Below, one piece after another: positions 1 through 51,630 of a DNA stretch of 64,000 nt. The first letter of the stretch is position 1, and the number at the start of each line of letters is the position of its first letter. Location of the stretch: positions 2,046,001 to 2,110,000 of the forward strand of contig CDLV01000008.1 of NCBI GenBank assembly GCA_001244265.2. Reading direction: 5' to 3'. The position numbers and the translations under genes were made by a program. The DNA is from Microbotryum violaceum (taxonomy: Eukaryota). The notes under the pieces are model-generated. The model was not told where the DNA came from. It searched no databases and saw nothing but the letters and a program-made list of their open reading frames with translations.

Positions 1-32
1 CGTCTTCGCGTCTTCGCGTCTTCGCGTCTTCG
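1..32. repeat. (CGTCTTCG)x4 microsatellite, probably intronic, truncated by the window edge
   Basis: Four perfect 8-bp units at the window start. Confidence 0.9.
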
Positions 33-51
33 CCACGCCCATCGCTCGCAG

Positions 52-979
52 AGCCCAGGCCTGCGCCTGAAAGAGGAGCTTAGCAGCAGGATCCCCTACT
101 CGCTCAATCTCCACAAGTTCCTCGCGTCGCCCGACCCCCAACTCGACATCGACGTTGAATATGTCACGTTTGCGGGTACCAGGGGGCAGGAGGAGCCGAT
201 GCAAGCTCTCTTTGACCAACTCAATGCTGTTGTGAGTTCGGTCGCTCTTCATACAGGGAAGTGATGTGACGCATCTTACTGATATTTTCCAGTTCGTGCA
301 TCAGGGTCAAGCGGTTCGGGGTCAAGCGTTTCGACGTGTCGGCACTAGTGAGGTTCTGAGCGTGCCCGTTTCGACGTCGGAAGAGCCACTTACCTCACAT
401 GGAGCAAGCACCCAATGCAGTGACGTTGTTCACTTTTGCTTCCACCGACCACATCGAGACGGTATGGAAGATGACAAACGAAGAATGGTACCGAGAGAAG
501 GCACGATTGGGTCGGATGCGGGTCGGCATCCGACCCATTCATCCGACCCATTGTCGGCGAATTAACCAGGTCCTCGCTCCGGGAAAGACGAAAGGCAGGC
601 ACAAGGCAGGCGCCGCCGCTCGGCAGATATTCCGCCGATTCTATCCCATCAAGTCGACAATCGCCCTTCGAGGGTTCGTCTATGCTTTCACACTAGCCGA
701 GGATGGCTTCCGAGTCCTGTTCCACATTCCGGGCGGGATCATGCAAACAAACGAGTTCAATTGTTCGCGGCCCGAAGTATCAAGCTCCTCCTTCGGTTCC
801 CTGTCCGACTTGTTATCGACACTGAACTCAACCTCGGTGCAATCATCTCGGGCGCCGCTTATCCGCTCACGGTCAACACTCTGCCGCCGATCATCAGCGT
901 CCTACCTCAGCGGAATCGGCCGCGAACGTTCGACATGAAGCTCGTCTTTGGGAACCGATCTACCGCAACGACGCGATGA
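52..979 (+). pseudogene. Decayed intron-containing gene, probably the N-terminal part of a fungal-type protein kinase (FunK1/Pkinase_fungal-like); its 3' part forms the left arm of a long inverted repeat
   Basis: Exon 52-231 (SPGLRLKEE...DQLNAV) and GTGAGT...ACTGAT...CAG intron 232-292. Downstream frames give RQIFRRF...RGFVYAFTLAEDGFRVLFHIPGGIMQTNEF...LLRFPVRLVIDTELNLG...LVFGNRST, resembling the FunK1 R-FV-GFTL...R-W-FDRSG...LG...GR-T region. Frameshifted, with no catalytic kinase motifs present. Confidence 0.4.
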
Positions 980-1346
980 CTGGAAGCCGAGCGGTATATT
1001 ACCCTGGTCTCTGGCGATTGACCTACCGCAACGACAGCTGCAGGGTAATGAACCGCTCGGCTTCCAGTCATCGCGTCGTTGCGGTAGGTCGGTTCCCAAA
1101 GACGAGCTTCATGACGAACATTCGCGGCCGATTCCGCTGAGGTAGGGCGCTGATAGATGATCGGCGGCAGAGTGTTGACCGTGAGCGGATAAGCGGCGCC
1201 CGAGATAATTGCACCGAGGTTGAGTTCAGTGTCGACAACAAGTCGGACAGGGAACCGAAGGAGCTTGAAGCCTTCGGGCCGCGAACAATTGAACTCGTTC
1301 GTTTGCATGATCCGCCCGGCATGTGGCACAGTCGGACTTCGAAGCC
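705..1346. repeat. Long imperfect inverted repeat (arms 705-1006 and 1041-1346, 34-nt spacer); candidate hairpin RNA
   Basis: The reverse complement of 1041-1346 aligns to 705-1006 with scattered substitutions and small indels. The ORF track shows near-identical peptides on opposite strands (e.g. 902..1099- and 948..1145+). Confidence 0.97.
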
Positions 1347-1405
1347 GACTGACACATCTTCTGTCCCTCGTCTCCGCACTGGAGTAAATACCTCAAATAC
1401 ACCTC

Positions 1406-1591
1406 CTTATATAGGGGTACGGTACCTGGTACCGCCTCTTGCCGGATATCTTTGCCAGCTCTATCTCGATTGAAAGACGCTTGACCTTTTTTTCATGCTT
1501 TGCGAAGGTCAGACATGGTCGACACGTCGGGGCAGGCGGGGCTCGGTGCCTATTCTCCGATTGGTCGATTGGTCGATTGGTGGGGGCGGGG
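1406..1591 (-). promoter_or_regulatory. Putative Pol II promoter facing the hairpin: TATA box, three CCAAT boxes and a GC box
   Basis: TATATAAG on the minus strand at 1406-1413. CCAAT on the minus strand at 1560-1564, 1568-1572 and 1576-1580, followed by GGGGGCGGGG. Confidence 0.55.
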
Positions 1592-2064
1592 CCCGGCGAG
1601 GGCTTGGTTGACCGCGGCCCCCCGACCTCTCAAGCGCAATCCATCGCCCTAACGTCGCTCGGACGTCAACACCAGATTGATCATCCTCCGGTCCTCAATC
1701 GCGATGTCAAAGAGCGTGTGCAAGGCGTGTGCAAGGCGTGTGCAAGGGAACGAATAGTACCATCTGCTCCCCAAGCTGCTTCAATTTCGTTCTCTCGCAA
1801 CCTAAGGAGCATTCCCGAGCTGGACCGTGATGCCGGCTTCATGAAGGTCCAACATCATGGCACTGTCAAGGCTCGAAGGCCTCCCTTTGCGACTCGCTCC
1901 GTCATCGCATAATTTAGGACAACGAGATCCCTTGCAACCAGGTAGAGAGGGGTACTACAAGAAGCACTTCTTGATGGCATACTAAGTCCGATCAAGCCGG
2001 ACAGTCGGACCGAGGTCGAGCTCGAGCTCGAGCATCCAATAGTTGGGTCGTTCGCCCGAACCGC

Positions 2065-4801
2065 TCAGGCCACGTATCGGAACGCGGGATGACTGTTGGC
2101 CGGTAGCACAAAGACACAGTCAGCTTCTCTCTCGAGACTGCTCTCCAAGCCATCATCTCGGTCACACTCACTCTTCAGCGAGCTCGTTCAGTGCCTCTTG
2201 CGGCATCTCCTCGAGTCCCCAAACCTTGATCCTGGCCTGCTGTTCCTCGGGCGACAACTGATCAAAGTCCTCGTCGCCATCCTGAGCGGGACCGTACTTG
2301 GCTTCCTTGGCCAAGTTCTCGCTCCTCAAATGAAGCGTCAGACCGAGAGATAGGATCAGAGTCATGAGCGCGAACCCGAGTCCGACGCTGTGGCCTCGGA
2401 TGAAGCGCGGCGAATCTTGCTTGAAGTAAACGAGAGAGGAGACGATACCACCGGCGCTGTGTAGGGAAGTCGCCGGGATGTTCAACATCTACTGTAACGT
2501 GCGCTGAAAGCTGCGCCTGGCACTCACTTTCCGACACTGAAGAACAGGCCCATGGCTGCGGAGCGCTTCGTTCGATTCGGATAGTTGTTGCCCTATGATT
2601 GAAAGAAACATCATCTTGATATCAGCTTCGGCAAACTTTAGCAATGGTGTGAGTGTGTGTAGACTCACGATCCAAGAGATGGAGTTGGAGATCTGAGTAA
2701 TTCAAGGGTCAAAAAGATTCGTCAGTTGCCGTAGCACCGCCTCGAATAAAGATAGCCCCCTCACAACCCAGTCTGAACTCACGCAGGGGCAAAGTCCTCC
2801 GACGCAGAGGAAGAGAGCGAAGTACGCAACCTTGGGGTCCGTCCTCGGGTCACGCGCGAGCAAGATGATGAATCCGATCGAGGCCAAAGAAATCCAAACC
2901 ACGTTGAACAAGCCGCGATGGCCGAGTCGGTCAGAGTAGAGCGCGCCTGAATAAGGATAGGAGTGACCCGCAGCCGATTCGATCGCTGATCAGCAGGGGC
3001 GACTTGAGGGCTCTAAAAAAGCGCGCCTATGCTTACTGAAGAGAGTCGTTGCGAAACCCAGGAAGAAAGGTGGGGTCGACATGAGCTGACTTTGAGACAG
3101 GCTAAACGTGCCAAGCGCCGCGACAATGGTCGGGATAAAGAGCGCGATAGAGTAGAATGGCTCGGCAACTCCCTGAGGAAGAGCAAGGTCCGAGGGGATC
3201 AGAGCTATTCGCAAACGATTGCAAGTAAATTCCAGAAGTTAGATTCGTCCAGACTCACAATGTAGATCAAGGTGAAGCAGTACGTCTTCCAGTCCGTGAA
3301 CGCGGCTCTGACTTGCGACCAAGCGAACTCGGTTTGCGACGATGGACCCCGGTCGGCCTTGAGACGGCGGAGCACCTCTTGTTGTTCATCCTGGGTCAGG
3401 AAATTGGCCTCTTCCGGGAAGTCCGTCATGACAAAGGGTGCGACACAAGCGACGAGGAATGTCACAATACCCTCAATCTGATTGAGATTTGTTACGCCGA
3501 GGTGAGCAAAGTGCGTCGGTCGCGACCCACGGACAGTAGCTGAAGTGTACGCACAATGAAGATCCATCGCCACCCGGCCAGACCACCCAGACCGTTCATC
3601 ATCGACAAGCCATGCCTAATAAGAAGAAGATGTAATCAGCACGCGTACGATTCCGAATATCCAAGAACGAAGATGCAGTAAGGATCTCACGCAATCAAGC
3701 CACCGAAAGCACCCGCGAGCGTCGCAGCCGAGAAGAAGAAACTGATGCGGATGTTCTGCTCCTTCCTCTTGTACCACGAGGTGAGATAGAAGCAAGCGGC
3801 AGGGAATAAAGGCGCCTCCGCGAAACCGAGGAAGAAGCGAGCGGTGGTGAGGCCGGTGAAATTGGTGACCAGACCCATCAAGGTCATGACGACACCCCAG
3901 ATTATCATCGCTGCGGGAAGGAATCGGGAGGGTCTCAAGCGGCGGACAAAGATGACCGCGGGCGTTTCAAAGAAGACACTGTGGATAAGTGGCCAGATTA
4001 GAAACGGAAACCTCATTTGTAATAATCCTAAGGGAGCTGTAATCGTTGAGGGCGCTTACTAGGAAGTAAAGAAGACCAGGAGAGCGATGGAGAACTGGTT
4101 GCCCTTGAGGTGAAGATCCTTTTCGAGTCCGTTCACTGCCCGTGATCAAGCCGAGAGATGATAGGCAGGGTAAGTCCATGGTCCTTCCACTTCACCCGAG
4201 AGGCGGAAAGCTCAAATGAAAAGGGCCTACGTCGAGCTTGTCCGCTGATAGTGCGGAATCGTACCGCAACGAGGGAAAACTCGTCAGCCGTCAGCCGTCA
4301 GCCGAAACAGGAACGAAGGCCAGGATGAGGGCTCACATGTTGACGCGATCCAAAAATGACATCAAATATAAGAGCCTGCGCCATCATTCCCAAAATTTAG
4401 CACTATGTCCCAACCCGAATTCCGGCGCAACCACACACCGACGAAGCGGTGTTGGAGGGATGCCGACCGTAACCTCCGAGGCGAAGCGAGGCGATTCCTC
4501 CTTCGGGCACCGCTGTCGCGTCAAGCTGTCGTCGAACTCACGAGAGGAAAGGTACAACCTTCCAATCGATCTGAGTGAGGGTCCAACGTTCGAAGGAGTC
4601 AGTCATAATATACACATCCCAACACGCTGCTACCGGGTCACCCACCTTGCGTAGTAGTCGTTGTTCGGCCGCCTTGGAGAAAGGCACGCCAGGTCCGGCG
4701 ACAGCGATCTCCGAGGCCTTCTCATCATCTTCGACACCGGAACCGGCGTGGCTGCCATTCATGGAGGCGCGATGTTGCAGGACAGGTTGTAAGTTCGACA
4801 T
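2065..4801 (-). CDS. MFS transporter, anion:cation symporter (allantoate/nicotinate permease, Dal5/Tna1-like) family; multi-exon
   Basis: Exons encode EQRLLRK-IDWKVVPFLS-LLYLMSFLDRVNI, ARFFLGFAEAPLFPAACFYLTSWYKRKEQNIRISFFFSAATLAGAFGGLIA, IEGIVTFLVA...DFPEEANFLT, AFTDWKTY, YSIALFIPTIV, DSPRFIRGH and the C-terminal HPAFRYVA*. Confidence 0.93.
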
Positions 4802-5525
4802 GGCAATAGTAGAGCACCGACCGGCGGTAGTGGAAAGTTAAGTGTGTCAAAGGTCAAGAAGACGAAGAAGAAGACAAGTCCAAGACGTGTTGGCAATGAA
4901 GAGAAAAGTCGATGCCCCCGACTCGGCACCCTCTCATTCGATTTTGGGCCTGCATTTGGACCTGATTCGGTCACCAGTGCCTCGGAACCCGTCGCAGCGC
5001 CATTCTCGCGCACCTTCCCGTTCGAGACATCAATTGGCCTGGAACGCACTGCCAAAAGAAACCCTACCTGGAGCGTTAGGGGGCGCTGTCACAAGTGTAG
5101 GATGTTCTGCTGGTGATGCTCACAAGATGTCGAACTGTGGCCGGGTGCTGAGCTAGCTCGTGCGACGTTTCGTCAGCCCTCGCCGTCGGTCGGACCTAGG
5201 GGCATGTTTTTTTTTGTCCAAACCTGGCCGAAGCACACTGAATCTGACGATCTCTTTCATCTCGCAAGATGTCGTATACTCAAGCTCATGGACTGCAGCG
5301 TGGTCTAGTAGTGTGGTAGAGTCAGAATCGCAGACTGTGCCGAGTGAAGGCCCGTGCGCGCGGTCAAAGCATCGTTGTTCTCGAGTTATCGCGATAGAAT
5401 GGAAGGGTGAACAGCTTAGATTGATCTACGCCACTGAATACGGAGCACATCAAATTGATTACATATGGAGTACAGCCTCTACGCATTTCCCAGAACGATA
5501 GGTAACCTCAAACGGCTACGAACGC

Positions 5526-8298
5526 CTACAACTTGCTCCCCTTGGACTGACCCATCTCGGGCCCGACCTCCAGCTCCGTTTCATGGATGTTGACGTTGAA
5601 GCGCGTCTTGTTGAGCGGCTCGGCCTGGGCGAAGCGGACGATCGCGGGATAGACGTCACCATCGTAGCGACCGAGGGCCGAGTTGAGTTGGTAGTCCGGG
5701 ATACCCCACGAGTCAACGAGAGGGACGGCTTGCGGTCGCAGATCGGCCAGGAGCGCGTGGACGCGGTTGCGCAACAACTCGTGTTGCTTGGGCGAGATGT
5801 AGCCCGAAGACAGGAACTCGGCGGCTGCGAGGGAAAGGCAAGGAGAGAATGCGTCAGCGACATAGCGCATTCAAAGTCGTGCGGCAATGCGATGCGAATC
5901 CCTGGAAAAAAAGTCTCACCCTCCGAATCCATGGTGTAAGTCGCAAACAACTCGAAGCAAGTCGTCATGATGCGAAGCAAAGCAGGTTGGCTCTGCAAGT
6001 CCTTGTCGGTCTTGATCGCCCTGGCAAAGTTGTACACGAGCACGAACTGCGAGTGCGCGACTGACATCCTGAAAATGTCAATCAGGAGCGAGTTCCACGT
6101 TCTCCGCTCAATGTCGCGCTTGCGCAAAGCCGTGGCGGTCAAGTAAGCTGCTCGGTGACCAAACGCCTGGATGAAGAATTCGGGGTCGGCAAGATCACCG
6201 GCGTACTTGGCCGACGCCTTGGCCTCGGGGTCCGAGATGTAGCGGAGGATGTAGTCGCGCGTTCGGTTCTCGGACGACATCGGGGCGTCGCGGTCGGCCA
6301 AGAGGACGCGGAAAGTCTTGAAGAGGTAGCGACCGACTTGCTGCGTCAACATGTATGAATCACCTTCCCACGTGACCTGGGGCAGGTAGTCCGCGTAGAA
6401 TGACGCCAAGCCACCGGAAAGCGAGAAACCGTGACCACCGCATGCTCGTCGGCACTCTTCGATCGCCCCCGAGGCCATGATGGTGCACAGACTCTTAAGT
6501 CCCGAACTCGAGGCGTGGACGTCGGCCAATCGCGAAAAGTCACCGTCGGCCATCGCGGTCTGGTTTTCTTCGTACAGGCGGAACATCTCCTTGCCCGTGT
6601 AGTGGCACGCGAAGGCTTGTACGAGCGGCGGGAAGATGCGGTGTTGAACAAGCTGGTAGTTGAGCACCTGGGTCTCGGCGGGCTTGTTGCCGTCCAAGAC
6701 GGGGGCGTCTCGATCAGCGAACTGGCGACGGACGGCGCAGTATCGGATGGCAATCGTGGCGGATCGGGCGAGCACCATACGTGCTTGTTGAACACTGCGG
6801 ACATGCGATTACCGTCAGCAACTTGGTACGCTAGGTCAAAACGGGCGCTCGGGTCTGCTCACATGTTGGCGCGGATGTAGGTCATCGTTCCGTAGCTCAA
6901 GCGGGCGTTGACGGGCTTTTCAAACTTCCCCGTCTCGATATCGACCTTGGCCCATCGGGCGAGGAAGTTGATATGCGGGATTTCGACGTTGTCGAGGAGC
7001 ATCGCACCGTTGTCGGTCATGGCGTAACCGGCCTTGGGTCCGATATCCATGATTGTGCGTCCGGGGAGGAGTTCGCGGGTTTTGACGTCGCGCAAGGGGA
7101 CGACGAAGGGGTAAGGGCCTCGCTTGACGAGCTTGCCATCTCGTCCGTCGGGGGTGTGCAACTGAGCCATGACCACGGCATGGTCGGCCGTACGCCCGAG
7201 ACCTCCGATCCACCTGAAGCGAGAGAAATCGTGCGCAAAAGACTCGATCTTTCAATTCGAGAATCCGGGCGAAACGGGTGACCGTTGCAGATCACAACAA
7301 GACTGACCACTTCATGGCGGTCAAGGACGGCGATTGCAGCTTGAAGGTCTTGGACTCGGGCTGGTAGACCGCAATTGTCTCGAGACCTTGGACGTTCGAT
7401 CCGTGGCCCAACTCGGTTTGAGCATAGCAGCCTGTCGAATGAGAACACCGGTTCCAGAAATCAGCCTCGAGCAAAGCAGGAGATAGCCGAGGTGTTCTTC
7501 AGGGTACGCACCAATGATTTCAAAATTCTTGGCGGGCTCGTAGAAGAGCTTTAGCTGCTCTTCGTTCGATTGTTCAGCCAAAGTCTTGAGGAACATGGAC
7601 CTGTAAGAGCCGGCGAAGAAGGTGCGGTCAGTTTCTAGTTGCTCGGGCGCCTGTTCCTCGTTCCTCTTCGATCGAACCGGCCGCGGACCGTGGCGAGGCA
7701 ATCGCCACCGGCTAGCCCGAACCCAGTCCCACCACTCCGCCAAAACGACTGCGCCGCTCACTGCTGGATCCAAGAAACTCACTTGTGCAACCCGAAAGCA
7801 GCGGGCCAATCCAACATATCCTCGGCAAGGGCGTGGTCCTTGGCGGACCAGTCCAACTCGGTGAGCAACTGCGCGAGACGCTTCTCCTTGGCGAGACCGG
7901 CCTTGAACTTGTCCGTTCGGGACATGAAGTGGATCCGTGACTTGTCGAACGCGGGCTGAAGGGTGGGATGAAGTGCGATTCGAGTCAATCACTGGGATAT
8001 GATGAGTCGATGTGCAGGAGGACTGGGATCGGGCCGTTGCAACCTCCAACGATCGACCAGCGAACCCTTGCCGCTAGCGCTGCAGAGTCACCAAAGTGGA
8101 CAAACTGACCTCATTCTCAAGTACGGCCAAGATCCTCTTGACCCTCTCCAAATGCTCCTTGCCATGGAGGTACAGGGTCAGGTCGTCCGAGCTGAAACTC
8201 GCCTTGGCGCGTTCGATCTCGAGCAGCCGTGAGCCGGGCGTGCCCGCCGGTTTGCTCAGGTGCGCTGGGATCTCGATGTACTTGACGCCGGGATCCAT
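5526..8298 (-). CDS. POX1: Peroxisomal acyl-CoA oxidase; multi-exon
   Basis: LEIERAKASF, GLH-SMF, GCYAQTELGHGSNVQGLET, KWWIGGLG, DIGPKAGYAMTDNG, TIAIRYCAVRRQF, EECRRACGGHGF, QVTWEGDSYML, LNSALGRYDGDVY; ends in the PTS1 signal SKL*. Confidence 0.96.
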
Positions 8299-8865
8299 CG
8301 TTGGGGGAAAGTTAGGAGTGCGATGGTGAGAAAGAGGTTGATGGCCCAAAGGGGAAGGGCGTGGGGAATTTAAGGATCCGGTAGAAATCGTTGGTGGCAA
8401 AGGTGTACGGGAGAGAAAAAAAGAACACAACCCACGTCCACTTCTGGGCTTTCGGACTCGACGATCGCCTCGGGTTCGGCCCGGGAGCGTGATACCCGGT
8501 CCGCTCGGTCACTGCAGCGCCCGGAGTTCGCCTGGGGCCGCGCCTTCCGGGTGCGTCGGGCACGGTCCCGATTTGAGCGCGCGCGAAAGGCTGCGAAACG
8601 TCAATGCGTAATGTTGCAAACAACGATTTAGCCAGTATCACAGTCACTCTATTTGCGAGATTATCATGTCGCGGCTCTAGTACAATTCTCTCATCTCGAG
8701 AGACGATGGCCAGGGCACCCGTCGACGCGTAGTCATCAGATGGAGTGGGCCGCCGCTCGTGTCTGATGGCCTATAGATCCGCCACCGTGACGTCCTCCAT
8801 GCTATTGCAAGACCACGCCGGACCACAGCAAAAATGCCCAATAAACCACAGGTTCTAGTTCGCTC

Positions 8866-11800
8866 TCAAATAGGACTCCTCAAGACCTCCACCTGATTCC
8901 TCAACTTTTCACTCCGAGTCCCGATCCCGCTATTTGTCGGAGAAGTTCCGAAATGGTTAGGAGGGAGGGGACTCCAGGAAGGCGAGGAGGACAGGTTTGT
9001 ATTGATTTGTTGGGGTTGGGATGAGTTTTCCCAGGGGTGTCTCCGAGTATGGTTGAGAGGCGAGGAGGATAGGGACCGTTTGCGCTCGAGACGTTCGGAA
9101 ATGACCTGGGTTCGTCAACAAGTTCGTCAGCAAACGCTTGTTAAGGCGCAAGCCACCCGGAAATAAAATAATGCCTCACCACTTCTTTCTCCAACCTTTC
9201 AACCAACCGATCTACCTCCCCTTGGTCCTTCCCCTTCCTCCATTCATCCAAATCTGCATTTTCGACCTTCTCCAACCACCGACTCTTGACCGCTTCACCC
9301 GTTAAATCCGCACGATGGTGCAACCAACTCGCAAAATTCGGACTCGTTAAGAAGCGCGAATAGAAGCGCTCGATCGCGGAGGAGAGGGTCGAGGTTGTTG
9401 GAGCTCGGAAGGGGAGGGGTGTGCCGTGCGCTTTGAGAGAGGCGAGGAAGGAGGAGGGGGTGAAGGTTGGGAAGGAAGCCGAGGTTGAAGGGATGGAGGA
9501 GATGGTCGAGGAGAGTGATCTCTCATGGGTCGGGCGGAGTGCCGAGCTGCGATTCAAGGCCATGTTAGTCTACAATGTCGGTACCAGGTAGCCTCAAGCG
9601 CAGCTCACCCTTGAGAGGCAGCACTCGGTCCCCCAGCCGACGCAAAGTAACGATTCAGAGGAGCGATAAAGCTCTCCGTCAGCGCCGCGAGATGCTTGAA
9701 AATCAAAGCATCACACGTCACGTAATCGCCGCCTTTGAACGCCGTTTCGACTGCTTTAGCAACGACGGGGTCCTTTTTGACGTGCCGCTTGCGCGTCGAA
9801 GTTAAACCGATGGTCGCAATTGATGTGGATTCGGTCTTGCCGATGTGTGTCCGAAGGATGTGGGCTCGACTTTTGAGTTGGGTCAAAATGAGTGGGTTGG
9901 TAGAGGAGAGGATGGATCCTGGTATTGGCTGTGAATACAAACCTTGACAGAGTCAATTCGACTCCCGCACCTCAGATTTGATCCACGTTGTCGAACCCTT
10001 ACCTTGCCAGGACTCGCGATCCGAGCAAAGTCCGTATCGTGAATATGAAAATAGGGTCGATAATCCCCCGCAAACAAAATGGGGCGAATGAGATTCTTTA
10101 GATGATGTACAAGCTCGGAGCCGGTGCGTGGATCCGAGGTCGAGATGAGGATGGGGTCGCCGAGAAGGACGAGTTCCCAGAGCAAGAGAATCTTGGAGAA
10201 CGATAGTGTGTCATGCAATGCGACTGATAACGGTGTGAGAGGGGATGATGCAGGGATCTGGTGAACAATCAATACGAAGTCGATGTTAATTTGATCCAGG
10301 AATAGGTTCGACCTGTGCTGCGCCTTACTATAGGTACAGGGCCGCCAACACTGGGCGACTTGAGTTGCGGAACCTTGCCCGATATCGAGGCTAGAGGTTT
10401 GAGCCATTGGGGCTGCGAGTCGATCGGTATCGAGACCGAGTGTACGACACCGAGGAAAGGGTAGTCGAGAGTGGCGCCGGGTAGGAGATCTGGCCTGTAC
10501 GTAGGAGCGCGTGTCAGCAAGCGACTCGAACCAGGGTCTCGAGCCACTGACGCACCAGGAAGCGATATTGTAGCAGGCAGTCTCGACCATACCACCTCCC
10601 TGGGAGCTGTGCTTGAAGTGGAGTGGTCCGAGGGTCGCTATGGTGATCGAAAAGAGACCGACGAGCGAAGGGCGATGTGTGATCTGTGCGAGCGCAGATA
10701 CGGTTATTCTATTCAGTCAGACCTTCTTAAGGCTCAGGAGACTCGAATGAGCACGTACAAGAACTAGAGATTGCTGCGTGTAACCTCTCCGTACCGTATC
10801 ATTCTGGGAAAAGGTCAACCTTCGTTCAGCTCGAGATCTTTGTTGCTTAAACCGTGTCGTAGTGCGCTCCGCACCTTTTCCTGAAGAAAGTAGACGAAAC
10901 CGTGCAAATGCCCATCGGATCTCGATCCCAGGTCGCCGGCACCCTGATCGTCTTCCTGTGCAGAATCCTGATCCTGGCCGACCTCGCTACTCATTCGACC
11001 ACTACCCAAGGTCGATCTCGACGTCGTCGCCTCCGTGTGCATCAAAGTGGCCAAGAAAGGGTCGTCGTCGATTTGATCGCCGTTGGCACTCGCATTGCCG
11101 CTCGAGACGGACGTGGTCGAGGTCGGACGCCGGGGTATTGGTATTCTCCAGGAGAAGGTGTGAGCGCCTGCGGTGGGTAGTTGATCCTCGCCTTCGGGGA
11201 GGGAGGAGAAGGCGATGTTGGATCGCAGTGACTTGGGGAACCGCGTTGGGGGATACACCTCGCTCAGCGCGGGCTAGCAGGGCCGAACGTGGGGGCGGCG
11301 TGACGACGTCAAGTCAGCTCGATCCACTCTCCGGGGGCTTGAACAGCGACGACAGCTCGGAAAGACTCACGCCCAAGTCGATATCAAACTCGACGATGGC
11401 AAAACACAGGATGTACCTGCGTAGCCGGTGCAGTATCCGTGCATCCATCGCCACTTCCGGAAAAGGGGACGCGCTCCGGTGGGTCGTGCTCGTCTTTGCC
11501 GGGGACACGTTCGAGGTCGTATTCAGCGATAGATTCGGTTTGCCGTCCAACAAAGGGTACGTAGAGACGGAACGCGGGCGTGGTGTCTCGAGCTCGGTCG
11601 AGGGCGGCGTTGTGCTTCGCCGTGGTGATAGTGCTGCCACTGCTGGTGGACGCGATGACGCCGCTGCTGGTGCGAGGACTCGAGGTGGGGCGGCGCCAGC
11701 GATTCGGCCATTTGACAGGTGGAGCTTGGGCTTCGACTTGACGACCACGTTCGCGTCCGATATTCTTGACGACGAGGCTCTTGGAGGTACTACAGCAGCA

Positions 11801-11877
11801 GAGACACGCAGCGAAGTGGACGACGACGGGACCCCAAAGTCGCTCGCATCCCAAATGTCATCGTCGCTGCTCGCCAT
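8866..11877 (-). CDS. DENND6: DENN-domain Rab GEF, DENND6/FAM116-like; multi-exon
   Basis: CFAIVEFDIDLG, YPP...NIAFSSLPEG, GFVYFLQEK...RRGYTQQSLVL, LWELVLLGDPILI...DYRPYFHIHDTDF, HLAALTESFIAPLNRYF, FYSRFLTSPNFASWL. Confidence 0.85.
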
Positions 11878-13822
11878 CGCGCACTCCAACGCGCCAGGAG
11901 GAGAGTGAGCGAAGGTAGCCAATGAAGCGCGGTCGCGCCAGATGGCCGACGTGCGACCGGCGCGCGCCAGTACAGTATTGAACATTTCCCTGGGCACCTA
12001 GCAGCAGTTTCAGCCACTGTATTTCTGTGGATGTAGCCCTAATTGGGTAACCTTGAACCTTTCCAAAACCGCTTGGGAACTCAGCTGTGTAGCCGGGTAG
12101 TCCCGGCCGTCGGGTTGGTGCATCGGCCCAGATCGGAGATGTGTGCAAAACCGCCGAGATTTCCAGCGGGCCGGCCCCCACACAGCCGCACTGGAATTTC
12201 TGCCCGGGCTCCTAGATGATAAGGTTTGCAATTGATCCCAGTTCGAAGCGCTGTGTTCCTCCCCAGCAAGACTTCAATAAGTCGAGCGAAATAACCAAGT
12301 CAACCTCCTAGGGCACCTTGGTTGATCACCCTCACTGCACCTTTCAACCGTTTTGGCAAAGTTGGGCCACTGCCAGGAACCCGCGCGCGCGTGAATGTGG
12401 CGTGCAGCGAGTCGCGCGCGATCGAGAGTATTTCCTACAATCGATGTCGTTCATGTACTTGATGAAGCCCTGCACCAGGGAGAGGGCCTTCGACGTCATT
12501 GCAGTCCCAGTCTGCCCCCGACTCTGAGTCGCCGTCGTTCGCTCGCTAGGATCCACCTCGTCCGACGAGTCGTTGATCAACATGTGGGGGAAACGCGTCC
12601 CGACAGCATGGCGATTCTCGCGGACACTGCAGGGAAGGTTCTAAACCATAGTGAATGCTACAATCAGACAGGGGGGTTGTGAGGGATCTCGGTAGGTCTG
12701 GTTGGGCCTCGGCAGGGTCGAACACATGCTGATGTTTCCTCGCAATGGCGCAGCGTGCGGATGTCTAGCCGAGTAGTAAAATCTTCGCAGTTCAACGTCG
12801 TAGTTCGTCCATGATTTTCCCAAAGGGGCTGCACCAGCCACCAGGGTCGTGCTGCCTCTGGTCCAGTGCGGCGCTGGAGTCAACTGCTGCTCGGAATCAA
12901 AAGCCCAACTAGAACCTCGACCTTGGCACGTCGCGGCGCGTACTACTGGTGCCGGATGTCTGGGAGCGCCTCGGCACGAATTCAGGGTCCGGGGAAGTGG
13001 TGCGCCCACTTCTTCTCCCGGGGAACCCTCCATCCAGGTCAACAACTCGCGTCCCCAAATCACGCCCACGTCAATAATCGGTCCACATCTTGCGTGATGT
13101 GCCTCACGAACGCACCCGAGGGGCCGAGTCTCTGGAGTGTCTCTGGCACATCTTTTAGTCGGCTGCCCGCTCGCTCGGCGTCTTTGGATCGCTCTTTCTT
13201 CGGCCCTCATCATGCTTTTCCCCACTTCGTATGCCCGGTCGTCTCTCGCTCGGAGCGTCGACTGGTCGAGTTACGTGTTTCCTTTTTCCACTCGATCTGG
13301 AAGCTTTCTCGCCACCACCGATTCTCGTCGGAACCTTTGGACCGATCACCGCAACGGCACTCGAGGAGCTCCGCGTCAATTCAGGAGTCCAAGGGTCTCT
13401 TGTGTCTCTGTGAACCACCTAAGGGGTTTTAGTGGGTATGATTGATTCTGATTCAGGGTCAATGAGTCCTACACTATTGGCCTAGCCAGTTTGCTTAACT
13501 GCATTCCCTCCGACATTTCCAAAGGTTTATATGTATTGATGTAAGTATATGCTGTTATTGAAATCTATCAAACAAACAAAAAAGGCCACGATTAAACGAC
13601 TGAATCTCGACAAATGAAAATAAAGAATCTCAGATCCCGGTGAGTCGGGATGGTGGGTCGGATCACAATTCGGAGTCTGCGAACAAAGCTTCAAGATGTC
13701 AGTCGATGCAACTACTGATGGTGAAGTCCATAGACCAGCTCGGAATACCTTTGCGACAAAGAGGTGTCACTGTATGAGGACGGATCGTCACCGCAGACAG
13801 TGCCAGTGCGAGAGGAGGCAAA

Positions 13823-14558
13823 ACATCCGCCTCCGCCTCCGCATCACATCAATCACAAACACAAAATTTCACTCCTTCAACCGGGCAGAATTCTGGTCTC
13901 GAAACCGAATACAAAGCGGGTGCGTTAGTGGGCTTCTGCATCTCGCAATGCTTCATCCGAGTCCTGGGTGATCCGCTAAAGTTATCTCGATCTTTTTACA
14001 GCTGGACTGGCGCTTGTAGCTTTTATGGTCACTGCAACTGTCCTACACGTGTTCGTGTTCTGGTGGTGTAACAGCGACCTGTTGTACCGCACCTGCCTCG
14101 GTGTCCTCCTGACGGGCACCGGTTTCACTATCGCGAGACGTTCGACATTGGGGCAGTTTTCGACGGTGACATTAAGCAGGCCATCTCTTGGGTGTGAGTG
14201 ACTTTGCCGACCCCAATAAAGCAAGTCTTCAGATCGATCATTGATGTTTTCTTCGCGATAGTGAAACGGGTGCCCGTCAGGAGGACACCGAGGCAGGTGC
14301 GGTACAACAGGTCGCTGTATGTAGCACCACCAGAACACGAATACGTGTAGGACAGTTGCAGCGACCATAAAAGCTGCCAGCGCCAGTCCAGCTGTAAAAT
14401 GATCGAGAGAACTTTAGCGGATCACCCAGCGATGAAACATTGCGAGATGCAGAAGCCGCTAACGCACCCGCTTTGTATTCATTTTCGAGATCAGGATTCT
14501 GCCCGGTTGAAGGACTGGAATTTTGTGGTTGATGTGGTGGGGACGCGGAGGCGGATGT
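13823..14558. repeat. Second long imperfect inverted repeat (arms 13823-14136 and 14253-14558, ~116-nt spacer); candidate hairpin RNA
   Basis: The reverse complement of 14253-14558 aligns to 13823-14136 (e.g. acagcgacctgttgtaccgcacctgcctcggtgtcctcctgacgggcacc is mirrored exactly), with substitutions and indels increasing outward. Confidence 0.97.
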
Positions 14559-15060
14559 GGCTTGCGAGCCGGGCTGCTCCATTTTGCCAGTCAAACTCAG
14601 GAGAGGAGATGAGGTTGGCAGCGGCAGCCGCTTGAATTGATCAGCACGAGCCTCTTCGAGTGGGAAAAGCTGGGACGCGTAAATATGGGTGCATGATGAG
14701 ACGATACTCACCTTGACTGTCCTTCAACTAAGCGAGTGCGTGTGTCAGCATGGAGCGAGTGGATGATGGCGGGAAAGAAAGAGACTTATGGACCTCGCAG
14801 CGGGCCCATATCGGCAGTTGGCCGGTCTTCCGAATAAGGTCGCACGAGTGACGAGCGATGATCACCTTCAGGAGTCAAGACCGAGAATAAAATGGTGAAA
14901 GATGCCGAGGACCGAGGTCATCACCATCCTGACATTTTTTTGTAGATACGTCCAGCGAGGATCACGGTCAATGAAAACATGATGAGGTTCAGGTCTATGG
15001 TGGGCCCGAGTGCAGGCATACAGTCGCACCACCTTTGAATTCGACGAGAGCCCACGAGCT
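14253..15060 (-). pseudogene. Probable decayed intron-containing gene of unknown family whose 3' part forms the right arm of hairpin 2
   Basis: Minus-strand splice-like signals (GTGAG at ~14711, GCTGAC at ~14744-14749) and broken hydrophobic reading frames; no recognisable domain. Confidence 0.3.
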
Positions 15061-15689
15061 CAGAGGGATGACTCGATGATCATGTGACTCGGTTCACTAC
15101 GAGAGGGGCATGTGTCGTAATCAACCCGCAGGCGATCGACAGTCGCCAACCGACGGGCCGGAGGTGCTAAATATTGGCGCGCTCTCAGACAGGGGGCTAG
15201 ACGGCCCGCGGATGCGTCGGATTTGCCTGGCCGCCTGTTCTCCCAAGATGTTCTGCAGTCGACAATATTTTCCTCAGGCCTCAGGTCCAAGGGCACTCTT
15301 TACTCGCCGCTTGCACAGCCATGTCTGCCCACCGTTGCTCTTACCCGTCACACGAACCCCCCACCGACAGGACAGGAGAGACTCCGACCGACGGCCTAGG
15401 AAGACTTCCTCCAGCCACCCGCCGCGTCTCGGGTGCTATAGCACTTGTCGTCTTCTTGGTCATGTTCTTTGTGTTCTCCGCTCTCTGTCTCTGGAACGCA
15501 CGGTTTTCTTAGTACGCATGCTTCTTGCACCATGTGGTTTATTTTTTACCAGTGGGAATCCTTTAAATTAACGGGGATGATGAAAATCAAATAGCAGGAG
15601 ACTTGAATTGAGCAGTGGAAAAAGAACACAATATGAAGTACAGTACAGTAAAAAAACGATTGTTCATTTATCGGAGGAACAGCCGCCCG

Positions 15690-17520
15690 TTCTTGTTGCC
15701 CAAAACGTCGTCGCAAGTCGGTCCAACTTGGCTTCAAACACTCGTGCAATGACATCCGGACGGTTGCGTGCTTCGTCATTCTCTCCCAGTGCAGCCTTGA
15801 TTTCCGGCCGTTCGGGGTTGGACGTCACCGCGATGAACATCGAAGGTCTTCATATCTGACGACGCACGCTACTGCATCTTAATAACGCTGCGGGATCTCG
15901 CGCGGCCTGTTCTTGAACGTCGAGCTCAAACTTATCGAACGTCCAGTTCGATTAGGGTCAGTACAGCGTCGGTGACACCTTGTGCCGTGGTGAGGCGCAA
16001 GCGTTCTTGGTGACACTGGAGGTAGTTTAGCCGATCGGTGTCGGCTTGGAAGTCTCCGTCGATCACGGACTCGGGGAAGAGACGCTGGGTGCAATGCAGG
16101 AAATGCGAGACTTGAGTTGATCCACTCGACTCCTTCTCCTTGACCTTCGTGGTAGATGTTCACACAGTCAATGTCAGTCTGTGCTTGCGTCTCAACAGAA
16201 AGGAACACGTAAGAAAGAGCCGAAAGTCATGTTCATTCCTCGCGGTCTTCATCCTCATCATCGCGGTCTTCGTCCTCCTCTCCGCCACATCAAGACCGAG
16301 ACCGGCAAGTACCACGGCAATCGGACACCATTGTTGATCTGCTCTCAGTTTGTTGCAGATCGGCGGCCCAGATCGGTGGAACCCGCAAAGAGGAGTGTTG
16401 AAGTGGATCTACGGAGAAGAGTAGTGGGTAACGGAGAGGCATCGCAGACGGATGGAGCGAGCTAAAGATTTGGTACTTGGGTCGACCATCGGGACATCGA
16501 TCACCGTGCACCTGGAGAATAAGGTCTTGCGGTCCACGATCTCCCGTGTTGGTGTCGGAATCGCAGATAAGCATCGCCATTTCCGTGCTTGACGTAGGAA
16601 GGTTGTGGGTGCGTCGGTCTCGGCCAGGTGGTACACAGAGGCGCAGGACCCACGCTTTGGCCGTATCTCAACATGCGCGGGCTTTGACCGATGCGAACTC
16701 CCTCACAAAGCGATTGTCGGTACGCAACATGAACTCGAGCTTGGTCAACGTAGATCTTTGTATGCGACTGTCTGCGCCGTCGAGTCCCAAGTCGAGTGTC
16801 GGTCGCCTCGGCCGGGTCGATGAGCCATGTCTGAGTAAAGGCTGGGCATTGATTCACGGCAGGGATCAGGGCGCCGAGTCGATGATAGAAGCGACCGAAC
16901 ACGCAAAACAGGGGGGTCCTAGAGTGCCCCCCCAGTCGTGTCTGGTCGAAGTGAGCAGCCGGTGAAGTGAAGCACAGCGCGTTGTTGTACGACCGGGCGT
17001 TTTCGCGGAATGTTTTAGATTCGGTGCGCGTGGGAAGCACAGTTCAGCATGTGGGTCTACTGCAGACGAATGTTGTTGGACGGAGCAACTGACCGCTATC
17101 CGAGCCTTCAAGTAGCTGTCGATACCCGGGATTGGCCTGGGGAGGGGGAGGCGCACCTTGCCCGCGAGCAGCACGTGCCAAAGTGTCCGGTTGACTTCGT
17201 CCTTTCGCACTCCCAGTGTCGAGCCTTGCAGTGGGTGCACATGGCCGTCTGAGGGCCGCGGTAGTCGCGGACGGAAACGTGGGAGACTGGGAGTGGTTTG
17301 AGCGCGATTCGAGCCCTGCGCGCACGCACCTTTGCGCCTGCGGAGGTGGTGGTGGGGGTTGCGCGCGAGGCGGGCGAGGGCGAGCCAGGCGAGTCGAGGC
17401 GAGCACTTCGCCGAAAAGCAGGTATTCGCGCACTCCAACTCAGGAAACAGTCCGGTTCCCGGCCCTCGGGGAGCAACTGAAGGCCAAGGATAGGGAGCGG
17501 AGGAGCTATATGTAGCAGGC
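15690..17520 (-). mobile_element. Truncated, degenerate Helitron (RepHel N-terminus through the first Rep motif)
   Basis: CTHCKARHWECER...FGTCCSRGKVRLP zinc finger, FRENARSYNNALCFTS, GRFYHRLGALIP...PAFTQTWLID, HPSAMPLRYPLLF, SSTFKNRPREIPQRY*DAVACVVRY and PSMFIAVTSNPERPEIKAALG...RPDVIARVFEAKL. Contains stops and frameshifts; the helicase half is missing. Confidence 0.9.
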
Positions 17521-48945: not shown

Positions 48946-51435
48946 GCATTGCTGAGAAGTATGTGTAATTGTCAATGGGGAGTCTTCTTGCACGTTCGTG
49001 CGGTGAGATTGGAAAAGAGGACGTCAGCCGCTCGGCTTTCTCGTCTTTTGTCCCTCCACACCTCGCTCATTCCCCCTCGCCTCGGTTGATGAACCGCGCC
49101 CTCGGGCGAAGAACCCTGTCAACTTTTACAGAATATCAAATTTGAGGTGTCGAAGGCGAGGTGCGCAGCAGGATCCCGACGTTGACACTTATCCCGGTGA
49201 GCGCAGGTTCGTCCTTCCATCCACCAGCACTTTTCCCCATGAGCTATCCCGCCGATTGCGATGAACTCGGACAGGCTTCTCGAGACAAGTGGATCCGACT
49301 CCCCGTTCAGGGATCGCAGAAGATAACGGTCGATTCGTTGCAGCGTCGGTGTGTCTTACTATACTGGCCTAGCCATTTCTTCCGACTCGATTTTCCGAAG
49401 ATTACTAGGCATTGATATTGTTATGGTGTTATTTGAGCCTAATTCAATCAAAAACAACCGCGGGGCCGACGGCTTCCTCAGCGTGTCCGCTCTCCCTCAT
49501 CAGCGCGCTTTCGCACGATCCCACCGACCTACGAAACAATGGAAGGACCAAGCAAAAAGACCACACCATTGGCCAAGATCTTTCCCAGCCCCTTTTCGTT
49601 CCAAGGTTCGCAGTACAGCGAGGGAAAGACCCCGATCCTCGCTAGACGTGAGTGCGCGTGTTCACCGCTGGTTTCCGCCGGCGCCAAGCACCGTCTACGC
49701 CATAACCCGAGCGAATTCCAGCCCCAGAAACACATCGGAGGAGTGGTATGGCTCATGTTTGAAGCAGCTGCGACAGCATGGTGTGAATCTGCCTCCGTCG
49801 TCACGTGCAATGCTGCTCTTCGCCAGTTCAGTCGCGGCACGCGTGACATGCAACTCCCGTCCGCTAGCGGCGCGTCGGCACGTGCCTGGCTTGGCCCAGG
49901 AAGACCGAGGAAGACGGCTCGCTGCCCGATGTGGGGCACCTCTCTTGAGTGGGCAGCGGCCATCGAGCACCCGTGGTTCGAGCAAGCACATCACCCAAGC
50001 GATCACATCCACTGATCGGCACGTTTTCTTCACGTCTGATATTGTACAGCCCCGTATACCCTCCACGAAATCGAAATGAAAGCGCTGTCATATTCGATTC
50101 GCTCGAATAAGGCCGACTGGCAAACGAAGCGGCTCAGTCGCGAGATCAGAACCAAATGGGCAATAGAGGCCTTGGAGCAGAGCGCGGAGAAAGCGCACAT
50201 GGCGTTCAAGCAGATGACGCTCGAAAGGCAACCCCTAACCTTTTGGATGGTCGACTACGTCTTGGAGGAGCTCGAACAGCACGCGAGGATGGAGCGCGTC
50301 GTCGACGGCCAGTGGAGGGTGAGTAGCCGGTTTTGGCGCTCGCGTGAAGCAGCACCAGCTGACTCGAGTGTACCAACATCATTTGTTCCCGGGTAGGAGA
50401 GCTGCTTTGACGGCATCTTTGAATCGGACCGCCTCATCCCTGATGGTCTACGATCGGCGCTGATTCGTCAAGTTGCCAAGCTCGAAAACGTTCCCGAGGA
50501 ACAAAAGGACTGGCACCCAGGATCGAAGAAGCAGGTCCTCGATCTCGTGCACCCATCTCTGTACCCGCTCGTCTACAAGCAGTCCGTGGTACGCAAATCC
50601 CTTGATGGGGAAATGCAACCAGGCACCACAGCTGCGTCGGCGGTGACCCTCGCCGAAGCACCCGCTCCCAAACCAAGTTCAACGTCCGCCATACCCACCG
50701 GCTTCGACGACGCAGACGAGACCTCGTACCTCTAGAGTCAGTACCAGTGGTTGCCCAGCGACTTTACGCTCGACGAGAATGGAGGAGTATCGATTGATGG
50801 ATACATCAACAACCTGCACCCCGACGACCATGCCGATTTGTACGACACCATCGCCGTCATCTTTTCGCAATTCGTGCCCCTCTTTGACCAGACGCTATCG
50901 GAACTGATCGAACCACGTCCCCGCGCGATCCCTGTTATCGATTCGCATAGCAATCATGGCCTCGCCACCGATGCGATGGACGTATTGGAGCGGGAGGTGG
51001 GGGTTCGACCTTCCGCTCGGGGTAGTCGTGGTGCCTGCATCCTCAGGCAGGGGCAACAACTCCAGCCCTTTCTCATACTTGCCCAACCTCCCCTCCAAAG
51101 CTTCACTCCCTCTCATCAACGTCCCGACCAAAGCCTTCAACGCTCCCGAAGTACACACGAGAAGCTGAGGTCTGAAAATGGCACGAGGTTCGAACGAGGC
51201 GATCGTCGATAAGAGGTGGATCGCAAGTGATTCCACCCTTTCTTCCCTTCTGAATCGCACCAAAGTGTTCTCAAACTTCCCCATCTTTTTTCTCGCGCAG
51301 TCACTCGCGCCATGGCGATCGCAAAGAGCAACATCCACGACACGCGGATTTCGGCCCAGCGCTAGCTTTTAGATCCAAAGACGGGCACATTTCCTATGAT
51401 GCCCTCATTCGTCCTGTAGAGCCGTCGTTTGCTCA

Positions 51436-51552: not shown

Positions 51553-51630
51553 GGTACTAGGTACCGGTCTAGACCCGGTCTACTTGCTTGTACCTGATGG
51601 CGCCCGCCCGGCGTTGACGTTGAAACGTGG

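What the first reader, a model, noticed from the sequence alone, without database searches (positions are those of the whole stretch)
705..14558. Recurrent architecture: decayed gene + inverted duplication of its 3' part + opposing transcription signals (candidate gene-derived hairpin-RNA system)
Seen: two ~300-bp fold-back repeats of unrelated sequence 13 kb apart. In both, one arm is continuous with a decayed intron-containing gene (well supported for locus 1, weaker for locus 2), the other arm is its inverted copy, and Pol II signals outside the copied arm point into the hairpin antisense to the parent gene. Transition mismatches lean toward G-U pairing on that same strand (about 4:2 minus for locus 1 and 6:3 plus for locus 2 by my hand count, which is weak alone). 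Established: inverted gene duplication is the accepted origin of plant proto-miRNAs and Drosophila hpRNAs, and Dicer converts long dsRNA into siRNAs. Inference: these may be endogenous long-hairpin RNA genes silencing paralogue families in trans, a class I do not know to be well described in this fungal group.
Basis: partly seen in the sequence, partly recalled or inferred. Interest (0 to 1): 0.82.

Follow-up and report, generated by a model that had tools for sequence, protein, structure and literature searches.

The report
Two fold-back duplications of decaying genes
Two real, roughly 300-bp fold-back copies of pieces of two broken fungal genes would form long RNA hairpins if transcribed, but nothing yet shows they are more than old repair scars.

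Summary
Both fold-backs are real. Locus 1 has arms 705-1006 / 1041-1346 (95.6% identical, 34-nt loop). Locus 2 has arms 13823-14136 / 14253-14558 (94.0%, 116-nt loop). Contigs of independent DNA runs break exactly where k=31 graphs must break if both arms exist. A gene model from a sister species reads across arm, loop and arm of locus 1.

Locus 1 derives from a truncated, frameshifted pseudogene of the fungal protein kinase family PF17667. Locus 2 copies the 5' coding part, with its intron, of an orphan ORF that has no homologues.

Both arms of locus 1 carry their own derived substitutions and indels. The mismatch spectrum is ordinary, and the claimed G-U strand bias is 4:4 and 6:3, which is not significant.

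A rare TATA box points into locus 1, but none points into locus 2. The closest named proteins are from Microbotryum, a genus reported to carry Dicer, Argonaute and RdRP, so dicing is possible. No transcript, small RNA or near-identical target was found.

Best reading: these are old fold-back repair or template-switch scars that flank a 12.5-kb gene block. The hairpin-RNA role remains an untested hypothesis.

The parts
1..231 (+). Exon of the locus 1 parent, a pseudogene of the fungal kinase family. The gene starts upstream of the window.
   Evidence: tblastn: P0001 residues 34-73 match 124-243 and P0002 residues 22-99 match 10-243, both in frame 1.
232..292 (+). Intron of the parent gene (GTGAGT...CCAG, 61 nt).
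   Evidence: The reading frame moves from 1 to 2 across it. The residues 'VHQG' after it match P0003 and P0005.
293..704 (+). Parent exon continued. It has a frameshift near 390 (frame 2 to 3) and an in-frame 8-codon insertion that holds a 36-nt palindrome at 505-540.
   Evidence: tblastn frames 2 and 3 against P0001 and P0002.
705..1006 (+). Locus 1 arm A, continuous with the parent gene. It has two further frameshifts, near 778-788 and near 893.
   Evidence: Arm alignment. tblastn frames 3, 2 and 1 within the arm.
1007..1040 (.). Locus 1 loop of 34 nt. Positions 1020-1035 are a 16-nt templated copy: the exact reverse complement of 1075-1090, and one mismatch from 957-972.
   Evidence: (pair I9).
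1041..1346 (-). Locus 1 arm B, the inverted copy. It reads in one frame against P0001 from 1317 inward, with a 1-nt deletion near 1313.
1406..1413 (-). TATATAAG, 60 nt outside arm B, pointing into the hairpin.
   Evidence: One of 3 TATAWAWR matches in 64 kb on both strands; 1.81 expected, and 28 of 100 shuffles reach 3. It is a motif only; function is not shown.
13823..14136 (+). Locus 2 arm A, the inverted copy, which has no start codon. It holds part of exon 1, an intron copy at 13920-14001, and exon 2 with a two-helix-like open frame.
14137..14252 (.). Locus 2 loop of 116 nt.
   Evidence: It holds no templated piece longer than chance 11-mers.
14253..14582 (-). Locus 2 parent copy. ATG at 14582-14580, exon 1 to 14468, intron 14467-14392 (GTGCGT...ACAG), then exon 2 with a 4-nt insertion relative to arm A. 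Arm B proper is 14253-14558.
   Evidence: No homologue was found and there is no Pfam hit.
13240..13520 (.). High-copy repeat 300 nt left of locus 2. Depth reaches about 8000 against a single-copy depth of about 56.
   Evidence: tables 2, 3 and 7 (loose ends at 13239, 13423 and 13520).

Best explanation
These are two old, fixed fold-back (inverted) partial duplications. Each truncates a degenerating gene, and they lie at the two borders of a 12.5-kb block of ordinary genes (MFS transporter, acyl-CoA oxidase).

Parent 1 (plus strand) is a pseudogene of the fungal protein kinase family PF17667. It has lost its catalytic half. Parent 2 (minus strand) is an orphan small ORF with one intron.

In each case the parent runs towards the block, stops, and is followed after a short spacer by an inverted copy of its last 300 bp or so.

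Inferred mechanism: at a break or stalled fork the 3' end folded back or switched template, copied about 300 nt of its own strand backwards, and was then joined to other DNA. Since then both arms have drifted like pseudogenes.

Shown: the structure, its presence in independent data and in a sister species, the gene origin, and the decay of the arms. Inferred: the formation mechanism and the absence of a selected function. Any transcript crossing a locus would fold into a duplex of about 300 bp and could be diced, as a by-product.
For: Structure and independence:
- Arms and loops are measured.
- Contigs of run X4 end at 874 and 14100 and start at 1177 and 14289. X13 also starts at 14289. Each break lies exactly 30 nt into the longest exact stretches shared by the arms. 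That is the expected break for k=31 graphs only if both arms, with the same arm-specific mismatches, are present.
- An opposite-strand joint at 14075/14135 is seen in X4 and X13.
- The sister-species protein P0002 reads through arm A, loop and arm B, 73 of 77 residues identical over 907-1137.

Gene origin:
- The locus 1 ORF has 9 hits, and 6 of 7 relatives scanned carry PF17667.
- Nothing in the window matches P0001 beyond residue 320.

Decay of the arms:
- Against the outgroup P0001, arm A has about 6 derived events and arm B about 5, by my reading.
- Transitions to transversions are 8:5 and 9:9. Transitions at CpG are 3 of 8 and 2 of 9.
- The two loci have similar arm divergence (13/297 against 18/302, Fisher p 0.46).

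Other:
- Loop 1 holds a 16-nt templated copy of an arm segment, a mark of serial template switching.
- Arm depth is single-copy, about 55 against 56.8.
Against: - A consensus TATA box, rare in this window, sits 60 nt outside arm B of locus 1 and points into it. A pure scar does not predict that.
- Two such structures within 14 kb, facing each other, is more order than independent accidents predict.
- At least locus 1 has persisted across a species split with arms still 95% paired.
- The formation mechanism is inferred from the product only.
- No outgroup without the fold-backs was seen, and no RNA data could be used.
Confidence: 0.6

Rival explanations
1. They are endogenous hairpin-RNA genes. 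A Pol II transcript crosses both arms, folds into a duplex of about 300 bp, and is diced into siRNAs that silence the parent or paralogues such as the kinase family.
For:
- The genus is reported to have one Dicer, two Argonautes and one RdRP, all expressed (passages).
- A TATA box points into locus 1.
- Parent 1 belongs to a multi-copy family.
- Locus 1 is kept in a sister species.
- Natural palindromic siRNA loci are known in a budding yeast (passages).
Against: - There is no G-U strand bias.
- At locus 1 both arms decay at similar rates, with frameshifting indels, and there is no sign of homogenisation.
- No contig at 85% identity or more, other than the arms themselves, raises depth on the arms in X4.
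- The closest annotated paralogue is 70% identical in protein, too far for siRNA slicing except in short conserved runs.
- Locus 2 has no family at all.
Confidence: 0.12
2. Both fold-backs are the two junction scars of one complex rearrangement that placed or re-joined the 12.5-kb block. Both broken ends folded back before being joined. This is a variant of the best explanation: one event instead of two.
For: - The layout is mirror-symmetric: parent 1 (plus) then copy 1, the block 1347-13822, then copy 2 and parent 2 (minus).
- Arm divergence is similar at the two loci (p 0.46).
- The junction of locus 1 carries a templated insertion.
Against: - The block is single-copy and holds ordinary housekeeping-type genes.
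- The block ends share no homology or microhomology that I could see.
- No ancestral arrangement was available for comparison.
Confidence: 0.2
3. They are foldback or MITE-type transposable elements.
For: Long terminal inverted repeats with a short middle. High-copy repeats lie beside locus 2.
Against: - Homology to the kinase family runs without interruption across the outer edge of arm A at 705.
- The sequences just outside the outer ends of the arms do not match, so there is no target-site duplication.
- Depth on the arms is single-copy.
- The two loci are unrelated in sequence.
Confidence: 0.02
4. They are assembly or chimeric-read artefacts.
For: Fold-back chimeras are a known long-read artefact (recalled).
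Against: - The arms differ by 4-6% plus indels, whereas artefacts give identical arms.
- Independent short-read contigs of other studies break at the exact predicted points.
- A separate sister-species assembly encodes the central junction of locus 1.
Confidence: 0.01

Closest known systems
Palindromic siRNA-producing loci of the budding yeast Naumovozyma castellii
   Same: Natural fungal inverted repeats whose transcripts fold into long hairpins. In that yeast they give 74.1% of 22-23-nt siRNA reads (passages of bioRxiv 10.1101/2019.12.12.873604).
   Different: There, small RNAs and Dicer dependence are measured. Here no RNA evidence exists. The fungus is a distant basidiomycete relative, and the arms are visibly decaying gene fragments.
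Drosophila hpRNA loci and plant proto-miRNA genes formed by inverted duplication of a target gene
   Same: Origin by inverted duplication of a gene fragment, with a long near-perfect stem. (PMC10317233 and PMC3237417 were seen as search listings only; the rest is recalled.)
   Different: Those loci have identifiable targets that are near-identical or co-evolving, and mapped small RNAs. Here the nearest paralogue found is 70% identical in protein, and locus 2 has no family.
Fold-back inversions and templated inverted insertions at DNA breaks in yeast and human
   Same: An inverted copy of the sequence next to a breakpoint, separated by a short spacer, with microhomology or templated bits at the junction. 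(PMC7467729, PMC10622511, PMC11724301 and PMC3907307 were seen as listings and abstract starts only.)
   Different: The yeast templated inversions described are mostly 5-34 bp, and the human ones are kilobases to megabases with terminal deletions. These are about 300 bp, interstitial, fixed in a species pair, and paired around a gene block.
Pseudogene-derived hairpin endo-siRNA precursors of mouse oocytes (recalled, not looked up)
   Same: An inverted duplicated pseudogene forms a hairpin that can act on the founding gene family.
   Different: Function there rests on small-RNA sequencing and Dicer knockouts. Neither is available here.

Membership tests
Hairpin-RNA (endo-siRNA) locus | Long inverted repeat with a short loop that folds into a near-perfect duplex. 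| tested here: met
   arms of 302-314 nt, 94-96% paired, z -40.7 and -46.4.
Hairpin-RNA (endo-siRNA) locus | A single transcript that spans both arms. | not testable with these tools
   The one read-laying run (12) held only contigs, and no RNA of the window's own organism.
Hairpin-RNA (endo-siRNA) locus | Dicer-dependent 20-24-nt RNAs confined to the arms. | not testable with these tools
   No small-RNA run was available. None of the papers listed describes small RNAs of this genus.
Hairpin-RNA (endo-siRNA) locus | A target gene with near-perfect complementarity. | tested here: inconclusive
   Arm depth in X4 is single-copy at 85% likeness or more. The nearest annotated paralogue is 70% identical in protein. 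No whole genome was held.
RNAi-competent host | Dicer, Argonaute and RdRP genes are present. | not tested
   Taken from the literature for a species of the genus that the closest named proteins come from (passages of PMC4469406). The window's own genome could not be searched.
Fungal protein kinase family PF17667 (parent of locus 1) | Sequence homology to family members. | tested here: met
   phmmer gave 9 hits, the best at E 2.5e-46. 6 of 7 relatives reach the PF17667 cut-off. The window ORFs themselves give no Pfam hit.
Fungal protein kinase family PF17667 (parent of locus 1) | Intact reading frame and the catalytic (HRD-containing) C-terminal half. | tested here: not met
   There are three frame changes, and nothing matches P0001 beyond residue 320. 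The Pfam hit of P0001 lies at residues 325-432. This is a pseudogene fragment, not a functional member.
Foldback or MITE transposon | Multiple copies, target-site duplication, and insertion that interrupts host sequence. | tested here: not met
   single-copy depth; no matching sequence outside the outer ends of the arms; gene homology runs through the arm edge.

The most novel reading that the evidence does not exclude
These are the first natural gene-derived long hairpin-RNA genes seen in an anther-smut (Microbotryum-type) fungus. They are transcribed from the parents' own promoters or from the flanking TATA box, diced into siRNAs, and used to keep a fast-evolving kinase gene family or the broken parents silent. 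The mirror-image pair around a gene block may mark a repeatable way in which such loci are born.
Probability: 0.12. Interest if true: 0.6.

Novelty: new member of a known kind. Interest (0 to 1): 0.35.

Why it matters
If the arms yield siRNAs, this would be a dated example of hairpin-RNA birth from pseudogenes in a basidiomycete plant pathogen that still has RNAi, and it is shared by two species. A 2022 re-analysis of fungal hairpin RNAs says it still needs to be shown clearly whether long hairpin RNAs occur naturally in organisms (passage).

If they are only scars, they are still a clean natural record of fold-back or template-switch repair. The record is about 300 bp long, with a templated junction insert, paired around a gene block, and fixed across a species split. 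It also shows how gene predictors are misled: the sister-species model P0002 translates straight through loop and antisense arm.

Tried and rejected
- Whole genome: none is held. So there was no genome-wide inverted-repeat scan, no search for RNAi genes in the window's own genome, and no target search.
- Sequencing runs: no RNA holder is listed for window 1-10000.
- Of the four runs laid, X18 is spliced RNA of a diverged relative. It has no cover on 1-1602 or 13885-15486, which is not evidence either way.
- X17, guessed to be RNA, carries unspliced introns at uniform low depth, so I treated it as DNA.
- X13 has thin cover on 1069-1487.
- Pfam: 0 of 10 ORFs around the arms hit at E up to 1.
- Locus 2 homology: no hits with the plus ORF or the minus ORF, both in 'near' lengths only. 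The ESM Atlas gave no usable hit.
- Rfam gave 0 matches in the window.
- The bacterial-type promoter/terminator scan is not informative for a fungus.
- No telomere repeat lies in the window.
- RIP-like CpG hypermutation of the arms is not seen.
- A second intron at 348-420 of parent 1, which I first proposed, is rejected. The homologue alignment shows a frameshift near 390 instead.
- An ODIRA-type inverted triplication and the staggered-break inversion model do not fit. The first needs arms as long as the whole segment, and the second puts the two copies at opposite ends.
Full report
THE OBSERVATION

The window holds two close inverted repeats.
- Locus 1: arms 705-1006 and 1041-1346, 284 of 297 aligned bases identical (95.6%), 6 gaps, 34-nt loop.
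- Locus 2: arms 13823-14136 and 14253-14558, 284 of 302 identical (94.0%), 7 gaps, 116-nt loop.

A scan of the whole window for inverted pairs up to 1500 nt apart gave 22 pairs. Nine of them are pieces of these two loci, and the other 13 are 35 nt or shorter. With seed 12 and minimum length 50, the only other inverted pairs are two distant ones, 2612 and 8049 nt apart.

Sensitive BLASTN of 1-2000 and 12800-16000 against the window found nothing but the arms themselves and a 36-nt palindrome at 505-540. The two loci are therefore unrelated in sequence and have no paralogue inside the window.

As RNA, the strands tested (minus at locus 1, plus at locus 2) fold into almost complete hairpins: -605.5 and -592.1 kcal/mol, z -40.7 and -46.4 against 20 shuffles each.

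NOT AN ARTEFACT

No whole genome is held. Twenty public runs from 8 studies hold window 1-10000. I laid four of them on 1-16000.

In X4, a different study of the same coded organism, contigs end at 874 and start again at 1177, and end at 14100 and start again at 14289. X13, another coded organism, also starts at 14289.

These four points lie exactly 30 nt into the longest stretches of perfect identity between the arms: 845-892 / 1159-1206 and 14071-14120 / 14269-14318, taken from the mismatch table. A k=31 assembly graph must branch there if, and only if, both arms with the same arm-specific mismatches are in that genome. This is my inference.

Both runs also show an opposite-strand joint at 14075/14135. 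Depth over locus 1 is single-copy, 55.6 and 54.4 against 56.8.

The arms also differ by 4-6% and by indels, which chimeric-read artefacts do not do.

LOCUS 1: WHAT WAS COPIED

The ORF 360-938 found 9 proteins at E 0.001 or better among 1.84 billion representatives. Six of the seven relatives I scanned reach the cut-off of Pfam PF17667, 'fungal protein kinase'. The window ORFs alone give no Pfam hit.

The sources name the two best hits as Microbotryum proteins:
- P0001, 491 aa, is a hypothetical protein of M. lychnidis-dioicae.
- P0002, 319 aa, is a gene model of M. silenes-dioicae.

I take the window to come from this genus. That is an inference.

tblastn lays the family on the plus strand as follows:
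- Frame 1 up to 231.
- An intron at 232-292 (GTGAGT...CCAG).
- Frame 2 from 293.
- A shift to frame 3 near 390, then an 8-codon insertion carrying the small palindrome.
- Within arm A, shifts to frame 2 (782-907) and frame 1 (892-1005).

Nothing in the window matches P0001 beyond residue 320, and its kinase-profile hit lies at residues 325-432. The parent is therefore a truncated, frameshifted pseudogene. The copied piece is the middle of the ancestral protein (about residues 190-291), not its 3' end.

The first 21 residues of P0002 lie upstream of the window, so the gene begins before base 1.

LOCUS 1: AGE AND DECAY

P0002 is a gene model that translates straight through arm A, the loop and the start of arm B in antisense. 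It is identical at 73 of 77 residues over 907-1137. The fold-back therefore exists in a separately assembled sister species.

In the arm B stretch, P0002 shares two residues (G, T) with the window's arm B at positions where the antisense reading of arm A has D and S. At a third position it agrees with the antisense of arm A. Most arm divergence is thus older than the species split.

Using P0001 as outgroup, I read about six derived events in arm A:
- Two substitutions that make FHI from CHM.
- V to I.
- T to I.
- A 1-nt loss with a substitution near 778-780.
- A 4-nt deletion at 893.

I read about five in arm B:
- R to E.
- A 3-nt insertion.
- A 1-nt deletion near 1313.
- A 3-nt deletion.
- Y to H.

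The single open frame of arm B from 1317 inward results from its indels there being multiples of three, not from conservation. I see no sign of homogenisation or of selection to keep pairing.

LOCUS 2

On the minus strand an ATG at 14582-14580 opens an ORF:
- Exon 1 runs to 14468.
- An intron runs 14467-14392 (GTGCGT...ACAG).
- Exon 2 encodes a hydrophobic helix.

Arm A on the plus strand repeats this from codon 9 or so. It includes the intron (13920-14001) but has no start codon, so the minus copy is the parent and the plus copy is the duplicate.

The duplicate keeps the more protein-like frame in exon 2, with two hydrophobic stretches. The parent has a 4-nt insertion there. Differences in the putative exons are mostly amino-acid-changing.

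No homologue was found with either ORF (near lengths only). There is no Pfam hit and no Atlas hit. 'Decayed gene' is plausible here but rests on the ORF and the intron signals only. What was copied is the 5' part.

MISMATCH SPECTRUM

- Transitions to transversions are 8:5 at locus 1 and 9:9 at locus 2.
- Transitions at CpG are 3 of 8 and 2 of 9, close to the share of G+C that lies in CpG, which is 0.27-0.39. The arms therefore show no repeat-induced hypermutation.
- Transition mismatches that would give G-U pairs are 4 on plus and 4 on minus at locus 1, and 6 on plus and 3 on minus at locus 2. Binomial p is 1.0 and 0.51.
- The two loci do not differ in arm divergence (Fisher p 0.46), so they may be of one age.

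SIGNALS

TATAWAWR occurs only 3 times in the 64-kb window on both strands. The expectation is 1.81, and 28 of 100 shuffles reach 3. One of the three, TATATAAG at 1413..1406 on the minus strand, lies 60 nt outside arm B and points into the hairpin.

That placement is suggestive, and a pure scar does not predict it. It is still only a motif.

Locus 2 has no such match. Its left flank is 300 nt of unique AT-richer DNA next to a repeat present at up to about 140 times single-copy depth (13240-13520). Another high-copy repeat lies at about 15690-15950.

An antisense promoter is not needed for a hairpin. Read-through from either parent's own promoter would give one.

SURROUNDINGS

Between the loci lie an MFS transporter gene and an acyl-CoA oxidase gene. 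The transporter has a PF07690 hit, and the RNA contig of X18 shows at least 11 splice joints with GT..AG ends on the minus strand. The oxidase has PF22924 and PF01756 hits. All are at single-copy depth.

The layout is mirror-symmetric. Parent 1 reads rightwards, then its inverted copy, then the 12.5-kb block, then the inverted copy of parent 2, then parent 2 reading leftwards. I could not explain this symmetry with certainty.

HOW THEY AROSE (INFERENCE)

Loop 1 contains a 16-nt segment (1020-1035) that is the exact reverse complement of 1075-1090 in arm B. It differs by one base from 957-972 in arm A, and it carries the ancestral base. Short templated inserts at a junction are typical of serial template switching.

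The product at both loci is: parent sequence, short spacer, inverted copy of the adjacent 300 nt, then unrelated DNA. That is what fold-back priming at a resected break, or a strand switch at a stalled fork, would leave. Comparable events are described in yeast and human (PMC7467729, PMC10622511, PMC11724301 and PMC3907307, seen as listings and abstract starts only).

Two other models do not fit. ODIRA-type triplication needs arms as long as the whole segment. Staggered-break inversion puts the two copies at opposite ends.

THE HAIRPIN-RNA IDEA

For it:
- The structures would be excellent Dicer substrates.
- Perlin et al. 2015 report one RdRP, two Argonautes and one Dicer, all expressed, in M. 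lychnidis-dioicae (PMC4469406, passages).
- Parent 1 belongs to a multi-copy family.
- Locus 1 persisted across a species split.
- There is the TATA box.

Against it:
- At locus 1 both arms carry comparable numbers of their own derived changes, consistent with neutral decay.
- There is no strand bias.
- Depth on the arms in X4 shows no contig at 85% likeness or more other than the arms themselves.
- The nearest annotated longer relative of arm B is 70% identical in protein, one of 2 hits among 854 candidates.
- Locus 2 has no family.

Paralogous DNA at about 85% identity does exist for exon 1 of parent 1. It shows as one double-depth contig with 18 differences over 96-181 in X4 and X13. It also exists for 14736-14845 and 15156-15266, upstream of parent 2. 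It does not exist for the arms.

No transcript or small-RNA evidence could be obtained.

COMPARISON WITH THE KNOWN

Hairpin loci born by inverted duplication of genes are established in plants and flies (recalled; PMC3237417 and PMC10317233 seen as listings only).

In fungi, palindromic loci of Naumovozyma castellii are the most prolific siRNA sources, giving 74.1% of 22-23-nt reads (bioRxiv 10.1101/2019.12.12.873604, passages).

A 2022 re-analysis of fungal hairpin small RNAs says it still needs to be shown clearly whether long hairpin RNAs occur naturally in organisms (PMC9757828, passage).

Eleven papers in the library hold both 'Microbotryum' and 'hairpin', and none has either word in its title or abstract. 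The 12 papers listed do not mention the genus at all. I therefore found nothing in print on such loci in this genus. That statement covers the open-access library only.

VERDICT

The gene-derived origin is confirmed for locus 1 and plausible for locus 2.

The functional reading is possible but unsupported, and several of its props fail: the G-U bias, the '3' part' description, the signals at locus 2, and near-identical targets.

I rate it a new member of a known kind, worth a cheap check against small-RNA and stranded RNA data, and not more.

Noticed in passing
window 13240-13520 and about 15690-15950: Two different high-copy repeats bracket locus 2. Summed contig depth reaches about 8000-9800 against 56 for single-copy DNA, and loose ends mark their borders at 13239, 13423, 13520, 15692 and 15846. 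The type of element was not determined.
   Followed up: partly
window 505-540: A 36-nt imperfect palindrome (83%) sits inside an 8-codon insertion of the kinase pseudogene, relative to its closest paralogue. The sister-species model differs by an indel there.
   Followed up: partly
window 63-190: In X4 and X13 the only contig laid here has 18 differences from the window and double depth. It is probably a two-copy paralogue of exon 1. The window's own version is not among the pieces shown.
   Followed up: no
window 14736-14845 and 15156-15266: A 2498-nt contig of X13 matches these two pieces upstream of the locus 2 ORF at about 85%, with 374 instead of 310 letters between them. So a diverged paralogous segment exists elsewhere in the genome.
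   Followed up: no
window 32302-32405 / 35018-35121 and 51433-51555 / 59605-59727: Two further inverted pairs (104 nt at 98%, and 123 nt at 96%) lie 2.6 and 8.0 kb apart. I listed ORFs only for the first interval, and none suggested a transposase.
   Followed up: partly
window 53338-53565 and 56122-56412: Tandem arrays: a 19-nt unit with about 9 or more copies, five of them perfect, and a 97-nt unit with 3 copies.
   Followed up: no
window 907-1137 compared with protein P0002: The public sister-species gene model translates through the loop and the antisense arm of the fold-back. It is very likely a mis-annotated pseudogene.
   Followed up: yes
window 1347-13822: Mirror symmetry: both inverted copies face a 12.5-kb single-copy block holding an MFS transporter gene and an acyl-CoA oxidase gene, and both parents point into it. 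This is unexplained.
   Followed up: partly
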